Notes under the pieces: model-generated
Told to the model about the DNA's origin: nothing
Databases searched by the model: none
The model's input: only the letters and a program-made list of their open reading frames with translations
In this document: in pieces, positions 1-21,854 of the stretch
How the letters are laid out: the number at the start of each line of letters is the position of its first letter
How positions within the stretch are numbered: position 1 is the stretch's first letter
Program-made: the position numbers and the translations under genes
IMG/VR virus record: IMGVR_UViG_3300020477_001105
Coordinates: 47,663-111,662 of that record
Reading direction: 5' to 3' (one strand)
DNA from: a virus
Length of the DNA stretch: 64,000 bases

Positions 1-342
1 AGCTAATAGCTTATTTACTAAGCTATCTATAGGTTCATCCTCCTTATTGTAAGTTAAATTGTCAGCAGAATTTGCTTCATACGGATCCATATATCCACCA
101 GCATCTTCACCCCAGTTGAAATTAATACCATCATTCAGCTTCTCAAAAAACTTGCTTTGAGTCTCAAGCGTGTCCCATGTATGCTTTGTATAATTATGAA
201 AATATACTAAAGCAATTTCACCTAGATATTTGTCTAATGTGTTAGTGTAGCTGCTAGCAGCAATATGAAAATCAATAGAGTTAGCAACATCTGTATCAAC
301 AATGTGAGCTATTCCTGTCTTTACTGGAAACTGACTACCCAT
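1..342 (-). CDS. Partial hypothetical protein, probably baseplate region (runs off window)
   Basis: ATG at 342 overlaps the upstream stop (TAATG); open to position 1 (MGSQFPVKTGIAHIVDTDVANS...); absent from the ORF track. Confidence 0.7.
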   Translation of the reverse strand, partial: MGSQFPVKTGIAHIVDTDVANSIDFHIAASSYTNTLDKYLGEIALVYFHNYTKHTWDTLETQSKFFEKLNDGINFNWGEDAGGYMDPYEANSADNLTYNKEDEPIDSLVNKLLA

Positions 343-17148: not shown

Positions 17149-17867
17149 TGCCACGACAATATTACGGAGATGAAGTAACAGTACCTGGAACGTTTAGAAT
17201 CGGTGACAAGTCGTTTAACGATAATGAACGTGACAACTTCGCGTTGTGGTTTAATGAGCAAATTAAAATTTATGGACAAGAGGTTCACTACTATGTAAGT
17301 GGATATGCTCTTTCTGCTCACGATGCCTTCTACGGTGAACAACCATCTGCTACTTATAGTGATCCTAGTAGAGTGGTTATGATGATTGAGTTAAATGAGC
17401 AATCAGTAATATTAAGCAAATTTGGTATAGAGGGTCAGGACGATGTTACTGCATGGATAGCAGTTAGTGCGTATTATGATACCTTCGGTCAAGGTGCAGA
17501 GCCAAAAGCAGGTGATGTGTTTCAATTGACAGAGTTTGGTAACGATAGACCCGGTGACCGTAATGGTAAGTTTTTCGAAATCACAGCTCGTCGTGATCAA
17601 GAAGTAAGTACAATTAACCCGCTAATGGGTCATTATGTTTGGTTAATACAAGCTAAGCGTCACGACTGGTCATTCGAACCTGGTCTGTCAGGTGAAAAGG
17701 GGCAAGACCAAGTATATGATGACTCTTTCTCAGGTAGGTTATCTGGTCATACTAACACACAGACTGATACCAAGGCATATACAGATAATGTTGATACAGA
17801 TTCTAAGAGCGTATGGAATTATAGCGCTTATGGGGATGACGATGATGTATATGGAGACTACAATTAA
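17148..17867 (+). CDS. Neck/head-closure protein (gp14-like)
   Basis: YGQEVHYY, FYGE, SKFGIEGQDD, EPKAGD motifs. Confidence 0.75.
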   Translation: MPRQYYGDEVTVPGTFRIGDKSFNDNERDNFALWFNEQIKIYGQEVHYYVSGYALSAHDAFYGEQPSATYSDPSRVVMMIELNEQSVILSKFGIEGQDDVTAWIAVSAYYDTFGQGAEPKAGDVFQLTEFGNDRPGDRNGKFFEITARRDQEVSTINPLMGHYVWLIQAKRHDWSFEPGLSGEKGQDQVYDDSFSGRLSGHTNTQTDTKAYTDNVDTDSKSVWNYSAYGDDDDVYGDYN

Positions 17868-18088
17868 GCCTTATTAGAAGAATAATAAGCTTCGTAGTCC
17901 GGAAGTGCTTCTTTTCTAGCTGTAGCAATATATCTGTCAGCTTGCGCTGTATCTTCAAACGTCATATCGAATTTGTCACCGGTTGATTCCTTAAAAGTGT
18001 AAACAAGTTTCTCTTGGCGGACAGCGATATTATATACTGTTAATTGTTTACCGGATTTAACAAATTGTGTACCTACTATATAATGCAT
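17864..18088 (-). CDS. Hypothetical protein
   Basis: 74-aa ORF overlapping the end of the upstream dehydrogenase. Confidence 0.6.
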   Translation of the reverse strand: MHYIVGTQFVKSGKQLTVYNIAVRQEKLVYTFKESTGDKFDMTFEDTAQADRYIATARKEALPDYEAYYSSNKA

Positions 18089-19170
18089 AACTTTTTAAGA
18101 TTCTTTTCAAACTTTTCGAACGGTATATCAGAGTAATTTAATACGTTAGGTAACTTAATATCACCACCTCTATTCTGCTGTACGCGATTATCAAATATAC
18201 CTCTACCCATTAAATCAGCAACACTAGAAATAGAAAATGCAGTACATTTCTGCATAGCGGTAAAGGTCTCATCACATTCAACTACATATTCTCTCTTCCA
18301 TGTTAAACCTGAATTGTTTGTAACCTCAGTCATTATGATAACTACGTCGTCTCGTGTTGATTCATATTCCGCGCTTGCTTCAAGTATACGTTTTAATTCA
18401 TCATCAGACATCTTACATTTATTCATGAAGAAATCAATTAATTCGTGATGACCTACCCATCTCAATGTCTTGTAAATGCAATTTTTAACACCTCTATCCT
18501 TCATACGACGAGTAGTATGAGCAGCACCACCACTAGTACAAAACGCCTCTAAAGTAATACAATTTTCCCACTCCGGGTCAACTAATTCACAGTGACTCAA
18601 ACCTGGTACAGTCTGTATCTCACCATCTCGTAATATCTCACAATCATCTCTATATTCGTTTAGTAACCCATCTAACGACCACGTCATGAAATACTTTAAC
18701 GGGCCAACGGGTCTCTTAAGGGGTATACCGCCAACCATCATCCTAACATCTGTCGCACCACTAACACGCGCATACCCTTGCTCTGCTAAAATATTAACCC
18801 ATCCTGGAGCCAATCCCAAGTCAGTAAATACTGGAGCTGTTGCTTTTTTTGCATAGCTATTAATATTATCTGAAACATCAACTCTTCCACCTAAATCACA
18901 ATACCGTAATCCATTATCAACACACCACGTGGCAACCTCTTCTGTCTGGTGGTATGGTAGAGATGAGATAACAATATCAGGATCATAGTCCTTAACATAA
19001 TCAAAATTTGGAGAAGATAGTGTAAATGATATATCTTTATTAATTAATCTCCGGAGATTATCTATACCTGTGCGATCTACATCAACACCTGCAACATCAT
19101 ACCCTAATTCATTCATGGCATAGCCGATAGCTTGCCCCATTCTACCTACGCCATAAATTAATGCTTTCAT
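18076..19170 (-). CDS. Saccharopine dehydrogenase / lysine 6-dehydrogenase family protein
   Basis: Rossmann YGVGRMG, YCDLGG, GLAPG, WSLDGLLNEY, LEAFCTSGG, KTLRWVGH. Confidence 0.88.
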   Translation of the reverse strand: MKALIYGVGRMGQAIGYAMNELGYDVAGVDVDRTGIDNLRRLINKDISFTLSSPNFDYVKDYDPDIVISSLPYHQTEEVATWCVDNGLRYCDLGGRVDVSDNINSYAKKATAPVFTDLGLAPGWVNILAEQGYARVSGATDVRMMVGGIPLKRPVGPLKYFMTWSLDGLLNEYRDDCEILRDGEIQTVPGLSHCELVDPEWENCITLEAFCTSGGAAHTTRRMKDRGVKNCIYKTLRWVGHHELIDFFMNKCKMSDDELKRILEASAEYESTRDDVVIIMTEVTNNSGLTWKREYVVECDETFTAMQKCTAFSISSVADLMGRGIFDNRVQQNRGGDIKLPNVLNYSDIPFEKFEKNLKKLCII

Positions 19171-19298
19171 TTTTTAAACCTCTTTCTAGGACCTCCTTGA
19201 CCTCTATACTTTTTATTTCCTCTACTATTATTACTACACCCTTGACGCGTCTTCTTACCGCGAGGCTTCTGATACCCCATTATATCCCGTCTAGACAT
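19167..19298 (-). CDS. Small basic peptide (43 aa)
   Basis: MSRRDIMGYQKPRGKKTRQGCSNNSRGNKKYRGQGGPRKRFKK; ATGA coupling to the next gene; below the ORF-track size cutoff. Confidence 0.7.
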   Translation of the reverse strand: MSRRDIMGYQKPRGKKTRQGCSNNSRGNKKYRGQGGPRKRFKK

Positions 19299-19301
19299 AT
19301 A

Positions 19302-19379
19302 CTAGTTACCTTTCTTCTTTCGCTTTTCTTTCTTAGGTTTCTTTTTCTCTCTCTTCGGTTTGTCTCTTCCTTTTCCCAT
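19302..19379 (-). CDS. Small Lys/Arg-rich peptide (25 aa)
   Basis: MGKGRDKPKREKKKPKKEKRKKKGN fills the gap between two genes. Confidence 0.55.
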   Translation of the reverse strand: MGKGRDKPKREKKKPKKEKRKKKGN

Positions 19380-19382
19380 AAA

Positions 19383-19730
19383 TTACTCCCATTCCTTTAA
19401 AATTGCTCTAAATTTATTATACATTACCTCTTCAAACTCTAATTGCTCTTTCTCGTTCCACGGTGAATCATGATAACAGCAAGGTCGATGCTTTAAACTC
19501 ATTATATAAGCAGCCTCTCTCAACAATCTATCCGGTTCTAAAGCTTTGTCCATAAAATTTTCCTGGACACTATGTTCATCGAAACGTCTACCCGGGCAAT
19601 GCTTATAGATGTATTCCATATATTCACCATATGGTACCCAACCAACAGTATCCCTATATTCTTCGATTTCAGTGAGAGTTCTCATCCCGTTATCTTTCAA
19701 ATTTTTATCTATTTCTTCTCTTTTATTCAT
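19383..19730 (-). CDS. Hypothetical protein
   Basis: 115 aa, ATGA-coupled to the aldehyde dehydrogenase. Confidence 0.65.
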   Translation of the reverse strand: MNKREEIDKNLKDNGMRTLTEIEEYRDTVGWVPYGEYMEYIYKHCPGRRFDEHSVQENFMDKALEPDRLLREAAYIMSLKHRPCCYHDSPWNEKEQLEFEEVMYNKFRAILKEWE

Positions 19731-21268
19731 TTTGACATTCCTTGGGGAAAGGCGATATCCTCACCGTGATTAACGGTCCAAGACATAGTATGAGTGACAG
19801 CTAGCCATGTTTTAGCTGCAGACGGAAAGCCATTGCCGCTCTTCTTTACACCTCCAAACGACAAATGACTTTCCGCTGCAATGGATCCACCATTCCAGTA
19901 ACACATACCCGTGTCACAATTATCTCGACAGTAACGAGCTGTACGATAATTATTAGTTAGAATGCCAACTGCCAATCCATATTCTGTATCATTATAAATC
20001 CGCACCCCTTCTTCAATAGTATCAAACGGAACTAATGCTACATGAGGACCGAAAACTTCATTTCTTAAGTACGGTGCCTCGTGACCTCTCCACTTTGTCT
20101 TATATACCATTGGTGTAATATAATACGCACCATTATCAGATGTATATTCAGGTACTACTAGAATTTGAGCATCATGATCTACAACAACTTCTTCGTTATA
20201 CTCGGAGATCTTATCAAATCCTTGTTTATTGATAATAGGACCATAATACATGCTCTGATTTGGTGTACCATCGTCATTGAACGGGTTACCTGTCTTTATT
20301 TCTTTAGCCTTAGCGGCAAATTTTTCACAAAACTCATCATATACTCCACGCTGAACAATCATTCTACCAGATGAGACACAACGTTGACCTGATAACTTAA
20401 ATGCACTAGCAATTGCTGCATCAACAGCCATATCAACATCAGCATCATCAAACACAATACAAGCTGACTTACTACCCATTTCGCAACTGGTCGTTTTATG
20501 CCAGCTCTCAGCAGCTACCTTTCGAATGTGTTGACCTACATCTGCACTACCAGTGAAGCAAATATGATCTACATCTTCATGGATTAATGCATTACCAACC
20601 AATCCGTCACCATGTAACACCTGCAATACACCGGCAGGTAGACCGGCTTCGTGATATAATTGAGCTGCGGCATGAGTAGACCAAGGAGCATCTTCAGAAG
20701 GTTTAATGATAACTGTATTACCTTCGACTAATGCTGGAGCTGCACACCAAAACGGTCCGATAGCTAGTGGAAAATTAAAAGGAGATACTATCGCAATGAC
20801 GCCTTTAGGCTTACGGATCATATACGAATCCTTCTCTGCAAGCTCAGATGAGACAATATCTCCAGTGGGGGTTCTACCGGACCCGAACGCGAACTGAGCC
20901 ATGTGCAGCGCCTCGTTAACTTCCGCAATTGACTCGTTGTAATTTTTACCTGTTTCAAGAGAGATAATACGCGCTAATTTCTCTCTACGCTGTACAATTA
21001 AATCTGCAACCTTATTTAAAATCTCTGCTCTCTCCAATCTACTTTTAGCCTTCCAAGAACTGAAAGCTGTCCGAGCGTTATCGTATGCCTCCCACACTTC
21101 TTCAGGAGTAGATTGAGGAAACATACCTAACACCTCCCCAGTAGCAGGATTGATATTAGCATATTCATCTGTGTCAAAATCTGCTCCCCCGACACCCTTT
21201 CTCCACGCTACAAATTCCCCGTTAACATAATTACGGCCTTCTACTAATTCGTCTGTCATTGTACTCAT
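19727..21268 (-). CDS. NAD-dependent aldehyde dehydrogenase
   Basis: PFNFP, KPSE, FTGS, catalytic E (CEMGSK), catalytic C (GQRCVS), EVFGP, FGGVKKSG. Confidence 0.95.
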   Translation of the reverse strand: MSTMTDELVEGRNYVNGEFVAWRKGVGGADFDTDEYANINPATGEVLGMFPQSTPEEVWEAYDNARTAFSSWKAKSRLERAEILNKVADLIVQRREKLARIISLETGKNYNESIAEVNEALHMAQFAFGSGRTPTGDIVSSELAEKDSYMIRKPKGVIAIVSPFNFPLAIGPFWCAAPALVEGNTVIIKPSEDAPWSTHAAAQLYHEAGLPAGVLQVLHGDGLVGNALIHEDVDHICFTGSADVGQHIRKVAAESWHKTTSCEMGSKSACIVFDDADVDMAVDAAIASAFKLSGQRCVSSGRMIVQRGVYDEFCEKFAAKAKEIKTGNPFNDDGTPNQSMYYGPIINKQGFDKISEYNEEVVVDHDAQILVVPEYTSDNGAYYITPMVYKTKWRGHEAPYLRNEVFGPHVALVPFDTIEEGVRIYNDTEYGLAVGILTNNYRTARYCRDNCDTGMCYWNGGSIAAESHLSFGGVKKSGNGFPSAAKTWLAVTHTMSWTVNHGEDIAFPQGMSK

Positions 21269-21819
21269 AATTCTTGTGTGCTTAACATTAAATCTTTTAC
21301 ATTGTCTTCACAGAAGCCGTCTCCTTCCCGTGAAATTAATTCATATATTACACCTGTAAGTTCAGATGGTTTTGTGAAAACTTGTTTTAATCCCGGGCAA
21401 GTAAGAGGTTCGTTAGAAAGAAATTCAGCATACCCTTCCTCTTTCCATTTCTTCATAGTATCTTCAACACTATCACACTGATAAGCCACATGATGAACAC
21501 CACCCACCCCACCGCGAGCAGCAACCCAATCACCAACAATAGATCCGATTTTACCATCGCTGACAAAGATCTCAGCCGGTGCATGATACGTGATATCTTC
21601 TTCGTCATACTCATTAAAACTTAAACAAGTATTTAGAGTCCAATCACGAGTTGAATCTGGTCGTTTTTCTGGTGGCACAAGAGCTAGACAATCAGCTTTA
21701 GAGCCATCATCAAACTCAATTTGAAATTCAGTGCCTATAGTGTAACCGAGTGTGTCTTCAAAAAACTTAGCAGTCTTATATCGATTCTTTACTCGATAGG
21801 CAATATGATCTAATCTCAT
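21265..21819 (-). CDS. VOC-family metalloenzyme resembling the HPPD catalytic domain
   Basis: LDHIAY, GGVHHVAY, LKQVFTKP...YELISREGDGF; His-His-Glu metal triad. Confidence 0.8.
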   Translation of the reverse strand: MRLDHIAYRVKNRYKTAKFFEDTLGYTIGTEFQIEFDDGSKADCLALVPPEKRPDSTRDWTLNTCLSFNEYDEEDITYHAPAEIFVSDGKIGSIVGDWVAARGGVGGVHHVAYQCDSVEDTMKKWKEEGYAEFLSNEPLTCPGLKQVFTKPSELTGVIYELISREGDGFCEDNVKDLMLSTQEL

Positions 21820-21826
21820 ATATATT

Positions 21827-21854
21827 ATTTTAACACATATGAAAAGGAAGTCAA
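21827..21854 (-). promoter_or_regulatory. Sigma70-like promoter
   Basis: TTGACT-N16-TAAAAT, 7 nt upstream of ATG 21819. Confidence 0.7.

What the first reader, a model, noticed from the sequence alone, without database searches (positions are those of the whole stretch)
18076..21854. Phage-borne operon resembling lysine catabolism, with a single-domain HPPD-like enzyme
Seen: one promoter precedes a VOC metalloenzyme, an aldehyde dehydrogenase, small ORFs and a saccharopine/lysine dehydrogenase. Established: lysine 6-dehydrogenase or saccharopine dehydrogenase yields aminoadipate semialdehyde, an ALDH oxidises it to 2-aminoadipate, and the VOC-fold Fe(II) enzyme hydroxyglutarate synthase converts 2-oxoadipate to 2-hydroxyglutarate. 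The 184-aa VOC protein looks like only the catalytic half of HPPD (H, H, E triad; QVFTKP...E...R.G.GF). Inference: a nearly complete amino-acid catabolic route on a phage, lacking the aminotransferase, with a possibly new minimal alpha-keto-acid dioxygenase.
Basis: partly seen in the sequence, partly recalled or inferred. Interest (0 to 1): 0.7.

Follow-up and report, generated by a model that had tools for sequence, protein, structure and literature searches.

The report
Phage lysine-breakdown gene trio
An uncultured marine T4-like phage, like dozens of related viral contigs, carries three enzymes that most likely break down lysine using parts different from the bacterial pathway, including a very small virus-only oxygenase; no enzyme has been assayed.

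Summary
On the minus strand, behind a sigma70-like promoter, lie a 184-aa VOC metalloenzyme, a 513-aa aldehyde dehydrogenase (ALDH), small ORFs and a 364-aa saccharopine-dehydrogenase-family protein.

The lysine reading gained independent support:
- **Co-occurrence:** of 67 viral contigs with the VOC, 56 have the ALDH directly downstream and 42 have all three genes.
- **Cellular counterpart:** the dehydrogenase's closest cellular homologues (28-36% identity) sit next to curated L-piperideine-6-carboxylate dehydrogenases. In at least three genomes a hydroxyglutarate-synthase (HglS) gene follows directly.
- **Swapped first enzyme:** a sister group of phages keeps VOC-ALDH but has a lysine epsilon-aminotransferase-like gene instead of the dehydrogenase.
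- **ALDH residues:** it keeps the ALDH7 substrate residues (Glu, Arg before the catalytic Cys, C-terminal Gln).
- **VOC fold:** it matches the catalytic domain of hydroxymandelate synthase/HPPD best (Z 15-17) and has HglS's His-x3-Arg motif.

Caveats:
- The ALDH fails the P6C-dehydrogenase model.
- The VOC has no significant sequence match to HglS and resembles methylmalonyl-CoA epimerase about as well.
- No 2-aminoadipate aminotransferase lies nearby.
- SpeD-like genes in some related loci keep a polyamine reading open.

Verdict: a new, virus-restricted variant of a known pathway. Confidence about 0.5. The scan's other note on this stretch, read in another window, gave the same reading.

The parts
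21827..21854 (-). sigma70-like promoter (TTGACT, 16 nt, TAAAAT, TG before the -10)
   Evidence: scan and sequence. It is a consensus match only, because the number of such sites in the region equals the shuffle expectation. No T4-type late promoter TATAAATA lies on this strand nearby.
21265..21819 (-). 184-aa single-domain VOC metalloenzyme, proposed Fe(II) alpha-keto-acid dioxygenase (2-oxoadipate to 2-hydroxyglutarate)
   Evidence: Pfam Glyoxalase_4 and Glyoxalase. AF2 model pLDDT 79. VIA-align Z 16.7 (HMS), 14.9 (HPPD), 14.5 (MMCE) and 10.2-10.4 (HglS 6w1k, 3lho). H5, R9, H110 and E160 are invariant.
19727..21268 (-). 513-aa aldehyde dehydrogenase, proposed 2-aminoadipate-semialdehyde (P6C) dehydrogenase analogue
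   Evidence: Aldedh 431 bits, but no NCBIfam equivalog is passed. E119, R296-C297 and the C-terminal F-P-Q are invariant in 52-56 of 56 homologues. ATGA overlap with the VOC gene.
19383..19730 (-). orf115, unknown and not conserved in related loci
   Evidence: No Pfam, NCBIfam or PHROG hit. No tblastn match in 75 related loci.
19302..19379 (-). 25-aa very basic mini-ORF (K/R-rich), status uncertain
   Evidence: Read from the sequence. Not tested further.
19167..19298 (-). orf43, basic 43-aa peptide whose C-terminal 28 residues recur next to the module
   Evidence: tblastn at 57-83% identity in about 17 related loci, usually just upstream of the dehydrogenase, once upstream of the VOC. Weak phrog_516 hit.
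18076..19170 (-). 364-aa saccharopine-dehydrogenase-family enzyme, proposed NAD-dependent L-lysine 6-dehydrogenase
   Evidence: Sacchrp_dh_C 82 bits. Best PDB match is 3abi, L-lysine dehydrogenase, at E 1.5e-16. Foldseek E 3e-22, TM 0.79/0.83. Cellular homologues pair with P6C dehydrogenase.
17864..18088 (-). orf74, unknown, overlaps the end of the dehydrogenase gene
   Evidence: Weak matches in only three close relatives.

Best explanation
This is an early-expressed phage metabolic module that degrades L-lysine.

Step 1 (inferred): the 364-aa saccharopine-dehydrogenase-family enzyme acts as an NAD-dependent L-lysine 6-dehydrogenase. It releases ammonia and gives 2-aminoadipate semialdehyde, which is in equilibrium with piperideine-6-carboxylate (P6C).

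Step 2 (inferred): the ALDH oxidises the semialdehyde to 2-aminoadipate. An Arg next to the catalytic Cys, a Glu and a C-terminal Gln would hold the amino-acid end, as in ALDH7.

Step 3 (not encoded in the module): a host aminotransferase, or another phage one, converts 2-aminoadipate to 2-oxoadipate.

Step 4 (inferred, the least certain step): the 184-aa VOC protein binds the 2-oxo acid on an Fe(II) held by His5, His110 and Glu160. Arg9 would hold the distal carboxylate. With O2 it decarboxylates and hydroxylates the substrate to 2-hydroxyglutarate, as HglS, HMS and HPPD do. Host enzymes can then return 2-hydroxyglutarate to 2-oxoglutarate.

The net effect would be to free lysine's nitrogen, carbon skeleton and reducing power during infection.

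Shown here: the genes, their families, their folds, their conserved residues and their co-occurrence. Not shown: any substrate or product.
For: - **Co-occurrence:** 56 of 67 viral VOC loci have the ALDH directly downstream, 43 have the dehydrogenase and 42 have both. Among loci with at least 6 kb of downstream sequence the figure is 39 of 52. An independent scan seeded with the dehydrogenase found all three genes in 7 of 8 loci; in the eighth (L004) the ALDH runs into the start of the fetched stretch, so the VOC could not be seen.
- **Dehydrogenase:** the best solved relative is P. horikoshii L-lysine dehydrogenase 3abi (E 1.5e-16; Foldseek E 3e-22, TM 0.79/0.83).
- **Cellular counterpart:** 67 of 401 sampled Gammaproteobacteria have a homologue of about 365 aa at 28-36% identity. 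In 16 of 20 fetched loci an ALDH gene comes next, adjacent to it. The three tested pass NCBIfam NF050084, L-piperidine-6-carboxylate dehydrogenase, at 748-779 bits against a cut-off of 730. In L035, L036 and G318 the next gene is a 265-aa PF07063 HglS protein. That protein matches rice hydroxyglutarate synthase at E 4e-28.
- **Swapped first enzyme:** in L100, L101, L103, L105 and L108 the VOC-ALDH pair is followed not by the dehydrogenase but by a class-III aminotransferase. Its best matches are L-lysine 6-transaminase TIGR03251 (472 bits; next family 222) and M. tuberculosis LAT 2cin (E 2e-100; next 1e-43). Both enzyme types make the same aldehyde from lysine.
- **ALDH residues:** E119, R296 and the tail Gln align with ALDH7A1 Glu121 and Arg301, which ion-pair with aminoadipate, and with the family-7 'crook'. 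They are invariant in 52-56 of 56 viral homologues.
- **VOC:** the best fold matches are the catalytic domains of HMS and HPPD (Z 16.7, 16.1, 14.9). HglS structures align at Z 10.2-10.4 over 140-158 residues. The motif D-H-I-A-Y-R matches HglS/FLO7 D-H-F-A-F-R, where the Arg binds the distal carboxylate of 2-oxoadipate and is needed for activity. The VIA-align range (model 1 on chain 56) puts R9 on FLO7 Arg64. R9 is invariant in 42 of 42.
- **Aminotransferase gap is natural:** no aminotransferase was identified among the genes next to the cellular operons that were scanned. Two direct neighbours, of 478 and 425 aa, gave no family hit.
Against: - The ALDH scores only 268 bits on the P6C-dehydrogenase model (cut-off 730). 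That is lower than on the SSADH, KGSADH and BADH models (about 320 bits). It is only 25-30% identical to the cellular P6C dehydrogenases.
- The VOC has no Pfam HGLS hit. BLASTP against a cellular HglS gives E 1.4 and hhalign gives 6% probability. A profile search of the PDB finds MMCE (E 8e-11) and HPPD (E 1e-4) but no HglS. The Arg9 match could therefore be convergent or coincidental.
- MMCE is nearly tied by fold (Z 14.5).
- The dehydrogenase is only 21-23% identical to 3abi. It differs from the cellular clade at 10 positions that are conserved in both groups.
- No 2-aminoadipate aminotransferase or 2-hydroxyglutarate dehydrogenase is among the recurrent neighbours, which are replication genes.
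- Ten related loci carry a SpeD-like pyruvoyl decarboxylase just upstream of the dehydrogenase.
- The aminotransferase-type loci also carry an arginine-dihydrolase-like gene, which hints at ornithine.
Confidence: 0.5

Rival explanations
1. Only the dehydrogenase-ALDH pair belongs to lysine breakdown (lysine to 2-aminoadipate). The VOC is not a 2-oxo-acid dioxygenase. It would be an MMCE-like epimerase or isomerase, or a glyoxalase-type enzyme, acting on some other chelating substrate.
For: The strongest sequence matches are to MMCE: phmmer E 2e-6, profile E 8e-11 and TIGR03081 at 42.6 bits. Fold Z is 14.5 for MMCE. A Glu at position 31 (34 of 42 homologues) may correspond to the catalytic Glu of MMCE; that mapping is from memory and was not tested. 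There is no significant sequence link to HglS.
Against: The MMCE model cut-off is not reached (42.6 against 114.95 bits). The C-terminal helix and the Q-x-F and GF...N motifs are HPPD-type and absent from MMCE (TIGR01263 local hit; HMS and HPPD cover residues 1-184, MMCE only 1-166). The VOC is tightly coupled to the ALDH by an ATGA overlap and in 56 of 67 loci. The cellular analogue operon has an HglS in the third position.
Confidence: 0.2
2. The module handles the C5 series. Ornithine, in some phages made from arginine by the dihydrolase-like enzyme, is converted to glutamate semialdehyde and then to glutamate. The VOC would act on 2-oxoglutarate or another keto acid.
For: The aminotransferase-type loci carry an arginine-dihydrolase/DDAH-like gene next to the aminotransferase (NF052232 at 234 bits). 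The ALDH scores slightly higher on glutamate-semialdehyde dehydrogenase models (304 bits) than on the P6C model (268 bits). Ten loci have SpeD-like genes, a family that includes ornithine and arginine decarboxylases (PMC10407285).
Against: The aminotransferase matches LAT far better than ornithine aminotransferases (472 against about 155 bits; 340 against 130 bits in the PDB). The cellular homologues of the dehydrogenase pair with P6C dehydrogenases, not P5C dehydrogenases. The Arg before the catalytic Cys is ALDH7-like; from memory, P5C dehydrogenases have Lys there. The dihydrolase-like gene is below its cut-off (234 against 450 bits).
Confidence: 0.13
3. This is a polyamine module. The saccharopine-dehydrogenase-family enzyme works on diamines, as homospermidine synthase, carboxyspermidine dehydrogenase or a putrescine/cadaverine dehydrogenase. 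The ALDH would be an aminoaldehyde dehydrogenase.
For: HSS and CASDH belong to the same fold family. SpeD-like genes sit immediately upstream of the dehydrogenase (gap -3 to 2 nt) in five of the ten loci that have them, two of them as HAD-SpeD fusions. Bacterial SpeD-type ornithine decarboxylases cluster with HSS or CASDH (PMC10407285). The ALDH scores 304 bits on the aminobutyraldehyde dehydrogenase model.
Against: phmmer finds no CASDH or HSS. Foldseek ranks them below the lysine dehydrogenase (E 3e-16 and 4e-9 against 3e-22). The protein is 364 aa against about 400-470. An invariant Arg beside the catalytic Cys suits a carboxylate-bearing aldehyde, not a cationic one. SpeD-like genes occur in only 10 of 43 dehydrogenase loci and not in this window. 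Neighbouring genes overlap here whatever their function. This reading gives no role to the VOC or to the LAT swap.
Confidence: 0.08
4. This is an aromatic meta-cleavage pair. The VOC would be a one-domain extradiol dioxygenase and the ALDH would oxidise the ring-fission semialdehyde.
For: VOC followed by ALDH is the classic order in meta-cleavage operons. The ALDH of L100 scores best on HpaE (318 bits), and the window ALDH scores 293 bits on HpaE and 277 on the hydroxymuconic semialdehyde dehydrogenase model.
Against: Extradiol dioxygenases match the model clearly worse (Z about 10) than HMS and HPPD (Z 15-17). All ALDH scores are far below the cut-offs. This reading does not explain the linked lysine dehydrogenase or lysine aminotransferase.
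Confidence: 0.04

Closest known systems
Bacterial L-lysine 6-dehydrogenase / P6C dehydrogenase (AmaB type) / HglS operons, seen here in Gammaproteobacteria loci L034-L036, and the Pseudomonas putida 2-aminoadipate to 2-oxoadipate to 2-hydroxyglutarate route (Thompson et al. 2020, PMC7286885)
   Same: The same three enzyme types are linked together: an omega-amine dehydrogenase of the saccharopine-dehydrogenase fold, an ALDH, and a VOC-fold Fe(II) enzyme with an H-H-E triad and an Arg four residues after the first His. No aminotransferase was identified next to the cellular operons either.
   Different: Only the dehydrogenase is a recognisable homologue (28-36% identity). The phage ALDH belongs to another ALDH lineage. 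The phage VOC is 184 aa and not a PF07063 member. The gene order is reversed, with the VOC first.
HPPD and hydroxymandelate synthase (TIGR01263; PDB 1cjx, 3isq, 2r5v, 3zgj)
   Same: Best fold match to their catalytic C-terminal domain, including the closing C-terminal helix (Z 14.8-16.7). They share the H-H-E triad, the Q-x-F motif, the E-x-I-x-R motif and the GF...N motif.
   Different: The phage protein lacks the whole N-terminal domain. It scores 23.8 bits against a cut-off of 277. It has Arg, not Asn, four residues after the first His (the HPPD residue is from memory). The aromatic-binding Phe of the C-terminal helix is Val174.
HglS / DUF1338 hydroxyglutarate synthase (PF07063; PDB 6w1k, 3lho, 2rjb)
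   Same: The D-H-x-A-x-R motif with the specificity Arg, the second His, the Y-x-E-x-x-x-R motif and the GF...(I/L)(F/M)EST C-terminus all occur in the same order. The fold aligns over 140-158 residues. The gene context is analogous.
   Different: No significant sequence similarity (BLASTP E 1.4, hhalign 6%, no Pfam hit). The protein is much shorter (184 aa against 254-465). Z is only 10.2-10.4.
Methylmalonyl-CoA epimerase (TIGR03081; PDB 1jc4, 6wf6)
   Same: Single-domain VOC of similar size. It is the best sequence match over the second beta-alpha-beta-beta-beta module. Fold Z 14.5.
   Different: Below the family cut-off (42.6 against 114.95 bits). MMCE lacks the C-terminal helix. The phage protein has an insert of about 30 low-confidence residues (50-80). 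Nothing in the context involves CoA esters.
ALDH7A1 / bacterial P6C dehydrogenase (NF050084) and Thermus ALDH (6fkv)
   Same: Equivalents of Glu121 and Arg301, and a C-terminal tail ending in a conserved Gln ('crook'). Only P6C-type models and structures align through to the C-terminus.
   Different: 268 bits against a cut-off of 730. The tail reads F-P-Q-G-M rather than L-A-Q-G-I. Only 25-30% identity.
Phage polyamine auxiliary genes (Li et al. 2023, PMC9992855)
   Same: Marine phages carry SpeD-like genes. In 10 related loci these sit inside this module.
   Different: That survey does not mention saccharopine-dehydrogenase-like or ALDH genes (0 occurrences). This window has no SpeD-like gene.

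Membership tests
VOC (glyoxalase/bleomycin-resistance/dioxygenase) superfamily | Pfam Glyoxalase or Glyoxalase_4 above the gathering score; paired beta-alpha-beta-beta-beta modules | tested here: met
   PF13669 at 29 bits (cut-off 27) and PF00903 at 27.7 bits (cut-off 20.6). The AF2 model shows the two modules.
HPPD / HMS (TIGR01263) | Two-domain architecture and a whole-protein score above 277 bits | tested here: not met
   184 aa, one domain; 23.8 bits, with only residues 144-178 matched.
HPPD / HMS (TIGR01263) | Catalytic-domain fold with a 2-His-1-Glu triad and a C-terminal gating helix | tested here: met
   Z 16.7 (3zgj 177-365) and Z 14.9 (1cjx 157-347), 152-153 residues aligned at 2.6 A rmsd. 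H5, H110 and E160 are invariant.
HglS / DUF1338 (PF07063) | Significant match to the Pfam model | tested here: not met
   No hit at E <= 0.01. No hit in the whole contig at E <= 1. BLASTP E 1.4 and hhalign 6%.
HglS / DUF1338 (PF07063) | H-H-E triad plus the 2-oxoadipate-binding Arg (HglS Arg74, FLO7 Arg64) | tested here: met
   D4-H5-I-A-Y-R9 against FLO7 D-H-F-A-F-R (PMC7286885). The VIA range 1..184 on 56..311 places R9 on residue 64. R9 is invariant in 42 of 42.
HglS / DUF1338 (PF07063) | Fold similarity to solved HglS structures | tested here: inconclusive
   Z 10.2 (6w1k) and 10.4 (3lho). This is a real VOC match but lower than HMS, HPPD and MMCE.
Methylmalonyl-CoA epimerase (TIGR03081) | Equivalog score of at least 114.95 bits | tested here: not met
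   42.6 bits, residues 93-162 only.
Aldehyde dehydrogenase superfamily (PF00171) | Pfam match and the catalytic Cys and Asn, with the general-base Glu | tested here: met
   431.5 bits. N165, E263 and C297 are invariant in 56 of 56; the assignment of E263 as the general base is from memory.
P6C / 2-aminoadipate-semialdehyde dehydrogenase (NF050084, ALDH7) | Equivalog score of at least 730 bits | tested here: not met
   268 bits. The cellular neighbours of the homologous dehydrogenases score 748-779 bits.
P6C / 2-aminoadipate-semialdehyde dehydrogenase (NF050084, ALDH7) | Substrate-anchoring Glu121 and Arg301 and the C-terminal crook Gln | tested here: met
   E119, R296 and Q509 align with the cellular P6C dehydrogenases. 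They are invariant in 52-56 of 56. Their roles are taken from PMC11362210 and PMC6127216.
Saccharopine dehydrogenase family (PF16653 / PF03435) | Pfam C-terminal domain above cut-off; Rossmann GxGxxG motif | tested here: met
   PF16653 at 82.1 bits (cut-off 31). PF03435 reaches only 21.5 bits (cut-off 25.1). G7-x-G9-x-x-G12 is conserved.
L-lysine 6-dehydrogenase | Closest solved relative and gene neighbourhood of the homologues | tested here: met
   3abi is the top hit by sequence and by fold. An adjacent ALDH gene comes next in 16 of 20 cellular homologue loci, and all three tested are P6C dehydrogenases. 42 positions are conserved in both clades.
L-lysine 6-dehydrogenase | NAD-dependent oxidative deamination of the epsilon-amino group of L-lysine | not testable with these tools
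   This needs an enzyme assay. Identity to 3abi is only 21-23%.
Carboxyspermidine dehydrogenase / homospermidine synthase | CASDH His-Glu-Glu catalytic triad; length of about 400-470 aa | not tested
   The triad was not mapped. Indirect evidence only: phmmer finds neither family, both rank below 3abi by fold, and the protein is 364 aa.

The most novel reading that the evidence does not exclude
The 184-aa protein founds a virus-restricted family of minimal, single-domain intramolecular alpha-keto-acid dioxygenases, a stripped-down relative of HPPD, HMS and HglS. Together with a non-orthologous ALDH and either a lysine dehydrogenase or a lysine aminotransferase, it would give many marine phages their own lysine to 2-hydroxyglutarate route. 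That route could salvage nitrogen and 2-oxoglutarate for nucleotide synthesis in nutrient-poor hosts. Alternatively it could flood the cell with 2-hydroxyglutarate, a known inhibitor of 2-oxoglutarate-dependent enzymes.
Probability: 0.35. Interest if true: 0.75.

Novelty: new variant of a known kind. Interest (0 to 1): 0.62.

Why it matters
Auxiliary metabolic genes of marine phages are known for photosynthesis, nucleotide, phosphate, sulfur and polyamine metabolism. I found no paper describing a conserved phage lysine-catabolic module.

The module is common in metagenomes. There are about 1,400-1,560 protein clusters at 90% identity for the dehydrogenase and for the VOC, and the Atlas clusters nearest to them are mostly viral. 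It was not found in the GenBank phage collection: the dehydrogenase has no match, and the VOC matches only two uncultured huge phages.

If the chemistry holds, three things follow:
- Phages re-route an amino acid that many oligotrophs may not catabolise (my assumption, not checked) into ammonia or glutamate, NAD(P)H and 2-oxoglutarate.
- It would provide the smallest known member of the HPPD/HMS/HglS mechanistic class, useful for enzymology and engineering.
- The swap between a lysine dehydrogenase and a lysine aminotransferase is a clean example of a pathway rebuilt from non-orthologous parts.

Tried and rejected
- I used viral contigs, genome contigs and the genome search instead.
- **Sugar or polysaccharide role:** this idea came from the ALDH-dehydrogenase pair lying among glycosyltransferases in a 'SAR202 MAG' contig. 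I dropped it because that MAG's VOC sits on another contig beside ThyX, GMP reductase and mannose genes. The two contigs therefore look like a mis-binned large phage.
- **Sequence link to HglS:** hhalign of the VOC alignment against three cellular HglS proteins gave 6% probability. BLASTP gave E 1.4. A profile search of the PDB found no HglS. The link is not statistically supported.
- **PHROGs:** only 'unknown function' families for the VOC and the ALDH.
- **Dedicated aminotransferase or 2-hydroxyglutarate dehydrogenase:** I clustered all ORFs of the 67 loci. The recurrent neighbours are UvsX/RecA, DnaB-type helicase, primase, GMP reductase, a deoxyribosyltransferase-like gene, a PD-(D/E)XK nuclease and a PHP domain protein.
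- **Genes between ALDH and dehydrogenase in two loci:** unrelated (MotA-like, ClpP).
- **Literature:** searches for the trio in phages found nothing. The pelagimyophage and virosphere-polyamine papers do not mention these genes. The 3abi paper (PMC2832993) is not held, so active-site residues of the lysine dehydrogenase could not be mapped.
- **Cellular search for the phage-type VOC:** in 400 Gammaproteobacteria only the probable phage contig of G002 and two marginal hits (E 7e-7) turned up.
- **Not run:** no tree was built for the ALDH or the dehydrogenase. The one search of protein representatives was not used.

Full report
**Observation.** All genes lie on the minus strand at the stated coordinates.

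| Gene | Coordinates | Length |
|---|---|---|
| VOC protein | 21819..21265 | 184 aa |
| ALDH | 21268..19727 | 513 aa |
| orf115 | 19730..19383 | 115 aa |
| basic mini-ORF | 19379..19302 | 25 aa |
| orf43 (basic) | 19298..19167 | 43 aa |
| saccharopine-dehydrogenase-family protein ('SDH-like') | 19170..18076 | 364 aa |
| orf74 | 18088..17864 | 74 aa |

- Pfam gives Glyoxalase_4 and Glyoxalase, Aldedh (431 bits) and Sacchrp_dh_C (82 bits).
- A sigma70-like site, TTGACT-16-TAAAAT, lies at 21854-21827 just before the VOC start. Such sites are no more frequent here than in shuffled sequence.
- No T4-type late promoter lies on this strand.
- VOC/ALDH, ALDH/orf115 and orf43/SDH-like overlap by ATGA.

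**Setting.** The window is the second half of a 111.7-kb IMG/VR virus contig, estimated 53% complete.
- It encodes T4-type terminase, tail sheath, primase, DnaB-type helicase, family-B polymerase and SbcC-like genes.
- The polymerase is only about 30% identical to cyanophage gp43, so this is a distant T4-like lineage.
- No tRNA genes were found.

**The three enzymes one by one.**
- *SDH-like.* Its best solved relative is Pyrococcus horikoshii L-lysine dehydrogenase 3abi (E 1.5e-16). The AF2 model (pLDDT 86) matches 3abi best (Foldseek E 3e-22, TM 0.79/0.83). Next come the saccharopine reductase domain of AASS and LYS9, then carboxyspermidine dehydrogenase, then homospermidine synthase.
- *ALDH.* It passes no NCBIfam equivalog. 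SSADH, KGSADH and BADH models give about 320 bits, and the P6C-dehydrogenase model gives 268 bits against a cut-off of 730.
- *VOC.* By sequence it matches methylmalonyl-CoA epimerase over its second module (E 2e-6; profile E 8e-11). It matches HPPD over its C-terminus (TIGR01263, residues 144-178; profile E 1e-4).

**Co-occurrence.**
- A scan of IMG/VR seeded with the SDH-like protein gave 8 loci. VOC and ALDH were upstream in the same order in 7. In the eighth (L004) the ALDH runs into the start of the fetched stretch, so the VOC could not be seen.
- A scan seeded with the VOC gave 67 loci. Of these, 56 have the ALDH directly downstream, 43 have the SDH-like gene and 42 have both. Among loci with at least 6 kb downstream, 39 of 52 have both.
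- The family is viral. The Atlas clusters nearest the SDH-like protein are 65-95% viral, and those nearest the VOC are 90-100% viral.
- A pattern scan of 185,579 species genomes found two loci. One is a 9.9-kb contig with the full trio. The other lies in a 'SAR202 MAG' whose two relevant contigs carry ThyX, GMP reductase and sugar-nucleotide genes and look like a mis-binned large phage.
- No cultured phage in the GenBank collection has the SDH-like gene. Only two uncultured huge phages have the VOC.

**A cellular counterpart.**
- In a sample of 401 Gammaproteobacteria, 67 have a homologue of the SDH-like protein of about 365 aa, at 28-36% identity.
- In 16 of 20 fetched loci an ALDH gene comes next, adjacent to it.
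- The three ALDHs tested pass the curated equivalog for L-piperidine-6-carboxylate dehydrogenase (748-779 bits, cut-off 730).
- In L035, L036 and G318 the gene after that is a 265-aa PF07063 HglS protein. In L039 it lies 5 kb away.
- That protein matches PDB 3lho (E 3e-79) and rice hydroxyglutarate synthase FLO7 (E 4e-28).
- So bacteria have a lysine dehydrogenase / P6C dehydrogenase / HglS module, and I identified no aminotransferase among the adjacent genes I scanned (two direct neighbours gave no family hit). That is the same logic as the phage trio.
- The phage and cellular SDH-like clades share 42 positions that are conserved in both. They differ at 10.

**A swapped first enzyme.**
- Five VOC-ALDH loci lack the SDH-like gene (L100, L101, L103, L105, L108). 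They share a conserved downstream array.
- In L100 the array begins with a DDAH/arginine-dihydrolase-like gene, followed by a class-III aminotransferase.
- The aminotransferase matches L-lysine 6-transaminase far better than anything else. It scores 472 bits on TIGR03251 (cut-off 521; next family 222). It matches M. tuberculosis LAT 2cin at E 2e-100, against 1e-43 for GABA aminotransferase.
- A lysine dehydrogenase and a lysine aminotransferase give the same product, 2-aminoadipate semialdehyde. I regard this swap as the strongest single argument that the conserved VOC-ALDH core works downstream of that aldehyde.

**The ALDH in detail.**
- Aligned with the cellular P6C dehydrogenases, the phage ALDHs keep the second Glu of 'EVxE' (E119), the Arg before the catalytic Cys (R296 in 'GQRCVS') and a C-terminal tail ending F-P-Q-G-M opposite L-A-Q-G-I.
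- These residues are invariant in 52-56 of 56 viral homologues.
- In human ALDH7A1, Glu121 and Arg301 ion-pair with bound aminoadipate (PMC11362210).
- The tail 'crook' with its Gln is considered a mark of ALDH family 7 (PMC6127216).
- Only P6C-type models and structures align with the phage ALDH through to its C-terminus.
- The enzyme thus looks built for a carboxylate-bearing amino-acid semialdehyde, although it is not an orthologue of known P6C dehydrogenases.

**The VOC in detail.**
- The AF2 model (pLDDT 79; residues 50-80 have low confidence) matches these structures under VIA-align:

| Structure | Z | Coverage |
|---|---|---|
| HMS 3zgj, C-terminal catalytic domain | 16.7 | residues 1-184 |
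| HMS 2r5v | 16.1 | residues 1-184 |
| HPPD 1cjx | 14.9 | residues 1-184 |
| HPPD 3isq | 14.8 | residues 1-184 |
| MMCE 1jc4 | 14.5 | residues 1-166 |
| 3lho (DUF1338) | 10.4 | 140 residues aligned |
| HglS 6w1k | 10.2 | 158 residues aligned |

- 'The catalytic half of HPPD' is a fair description of the fold.
- Invariant residues include H5, R9, R13, E83, W98, H109, H110, Q146, F148, E160, R164, F169 and V174.
- The N-terminal motif D-H-I-A-Y-R equals D-H-F-A-F-R of FLO7 and D-H-I-A-L-R of the cellular HglS proteins.
[quoted passage not shown] It is needed for activity and is kept in over 99% of bacterial homologues (PMC7286885).
- The VIA range (model 1 on chain 56) places R9 on residue 64.
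- Later motifs follow in the same order: (N/H)-H, L-x-Q-x-x-T, Y-x-E-x-x-x-R, and GF...(I/L)(F/M)-E-S-T.
- Against this, BLASTP of the VOC on a cellular HglS gives E 1.4, hhalign gives 6% and PF07063 gives no hit.
- I therefore treat the protein as working like HglS but not as a member of that family.

**What is missing.**
- The step from 2-aminoadipate to 2-oxoadipate needs an aminotransferase. None is among the recurrent neighbours, which are replication and nucleotide genes.
- The contig has one class-I/II aminotransferase 54 kb away, and it is HisC-like. It has no class-III aminotransferase.
- The step is probably left to the host, as seems to be the case in the cellular operons, where I identified no aminotransferase.

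**Rivals.**
1. The VOC is an MMCE-like epimerase or another VOC enzyme, and only lysine to 2-aminoadipate is encoded.
2. The module handles ornithine. This is suggested by the arginine-dihydrolase-like gene and by the ALDH's similar scores on P5C-dehydrogenase models.
3. The module is for polyamines. The space between ALDH and SDH-like in other loci often holds a small HAD-like phosphatase (26 loci). In 10 loci it holds a SpeD-like pyruvoyl decarboxylase, which ends within 2 nt of the SDH-like start (or overlaps it) in five of them and is twice fused to the HAD. Bacterial SpeD-type ornithine decarboxylases cluster with HSS or CASDH.
4. The pair is an aromatic meta-cleavage module.

The LAT swap, the cellular operon, the Arg beside the catalytic Cys and the fold ranking argue against rivals 2 to 4. 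Rival 1 remains serious.

**Verdict.**
- This is a virus-restricted variant of a known pathway, built largely from non-orthologous parts.
- Confidence in the full four-step reading is about 0.5. It is higher (about 0.65) for lysine to 2-aminoadipate alone.

Noticed in passing
L057:11296-12048, L078:11814-12530; also L058:7504-7884, L082:11119-11472 and others: Between ALDH and the dehydrogenase, related viral loci carry a small HAD-like phosphatase (motif D-I-D-E-T, about 138 aa, 26 loci). Ten loci carry a SpeD/AdoMetDC-like pyruvoyl enzyme (motif W-K-E-S-G, about 118 aa). In two loci the two are fused into one ORF. The SpeD-like gene often ends within 0-2 nt of the dehydrogenase start.
   Followed up: partly
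window 19167-19298 (-) and 19302-19379 (-): Two consecutive tiny, extremely basic ORFs (43 and 25 aa). The C-terminal 28 residues of the 43-aa peptide are 57-83% identical in about 17 other loci, always beside the module, usually just before the dehydrogenase and once before the VOC. Function unknown.
   Followed up: partly
L100:3824-18482 (also L101, L103, L105, L108): Phages of the aminotransferase type surround VOC-ALDH with an arginine-dihydrolase/DDAH-like gene, a LAT-like aminotransferase, a short nucleotide-sugar dehydrogenase-like ORF (280 aa), GlmS and a 3-hydroxyacyl-CoA dehydrogenase-like gene. This is a dense metabolic island.
   Followed up: partly
G000:C1:11953-12660 (-), outside the window (L114:1417-2370): The same phage contig encodes a 317-aa class-I/II aminotransferase whose nearest solved relatives are histidinol-phosphate aminotransferases (E 3e-20). 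It is a weak candidate for the missing 2-aminoadipate aminotransferase.
   Followed up: partly
L011 and L014 (contigs VFHP01000009 and C13 of a 'SAR202 cluster' MAG): Two contigs of a published SAR202 MAG carry the phage-type ALDH, dehydrogenase and VOC beside ThyX, GMP reductase, phosphomannomutase and many glycosyltransferases. They look like pieces of a large phage binned into the MAG.
   Followed up: partly
L087 (532-kb contig), L111 (373-kb contig); GenBank LR756511 and LR756504: Huge-phage genomes carry the VOC gene alone, with no ALDH or dehydrogenase within 9 kb (L087, L111). One 72-kb contig has two VOC copies, one inside a trio and one alone (L076 and L113). The neighbourhoods in the two GenBank records were not checked.
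   Followed up: no
L036:7900-9336 and L035:10711-12117: In the cellular lysine dehydrogenase / P6C dehydrogenase / HglS operons a conserved protein of about 470 aa with no Pfam or NCBIfam hit lies directly upstream. It may be an uncharacterised part of that pathway, for example a transporter.
   Followed up: no
L007:833-1999, L048:3596-4756, L014:8415-9467: A GMP-reductase/IMPDH-family gene recurs within a few kb of the module in about 15 loci, together with UvsX, helicase and primase genes. The module therefore sits in the replication and nucleotide-metabolism region of these phages.
   Followed up: partly
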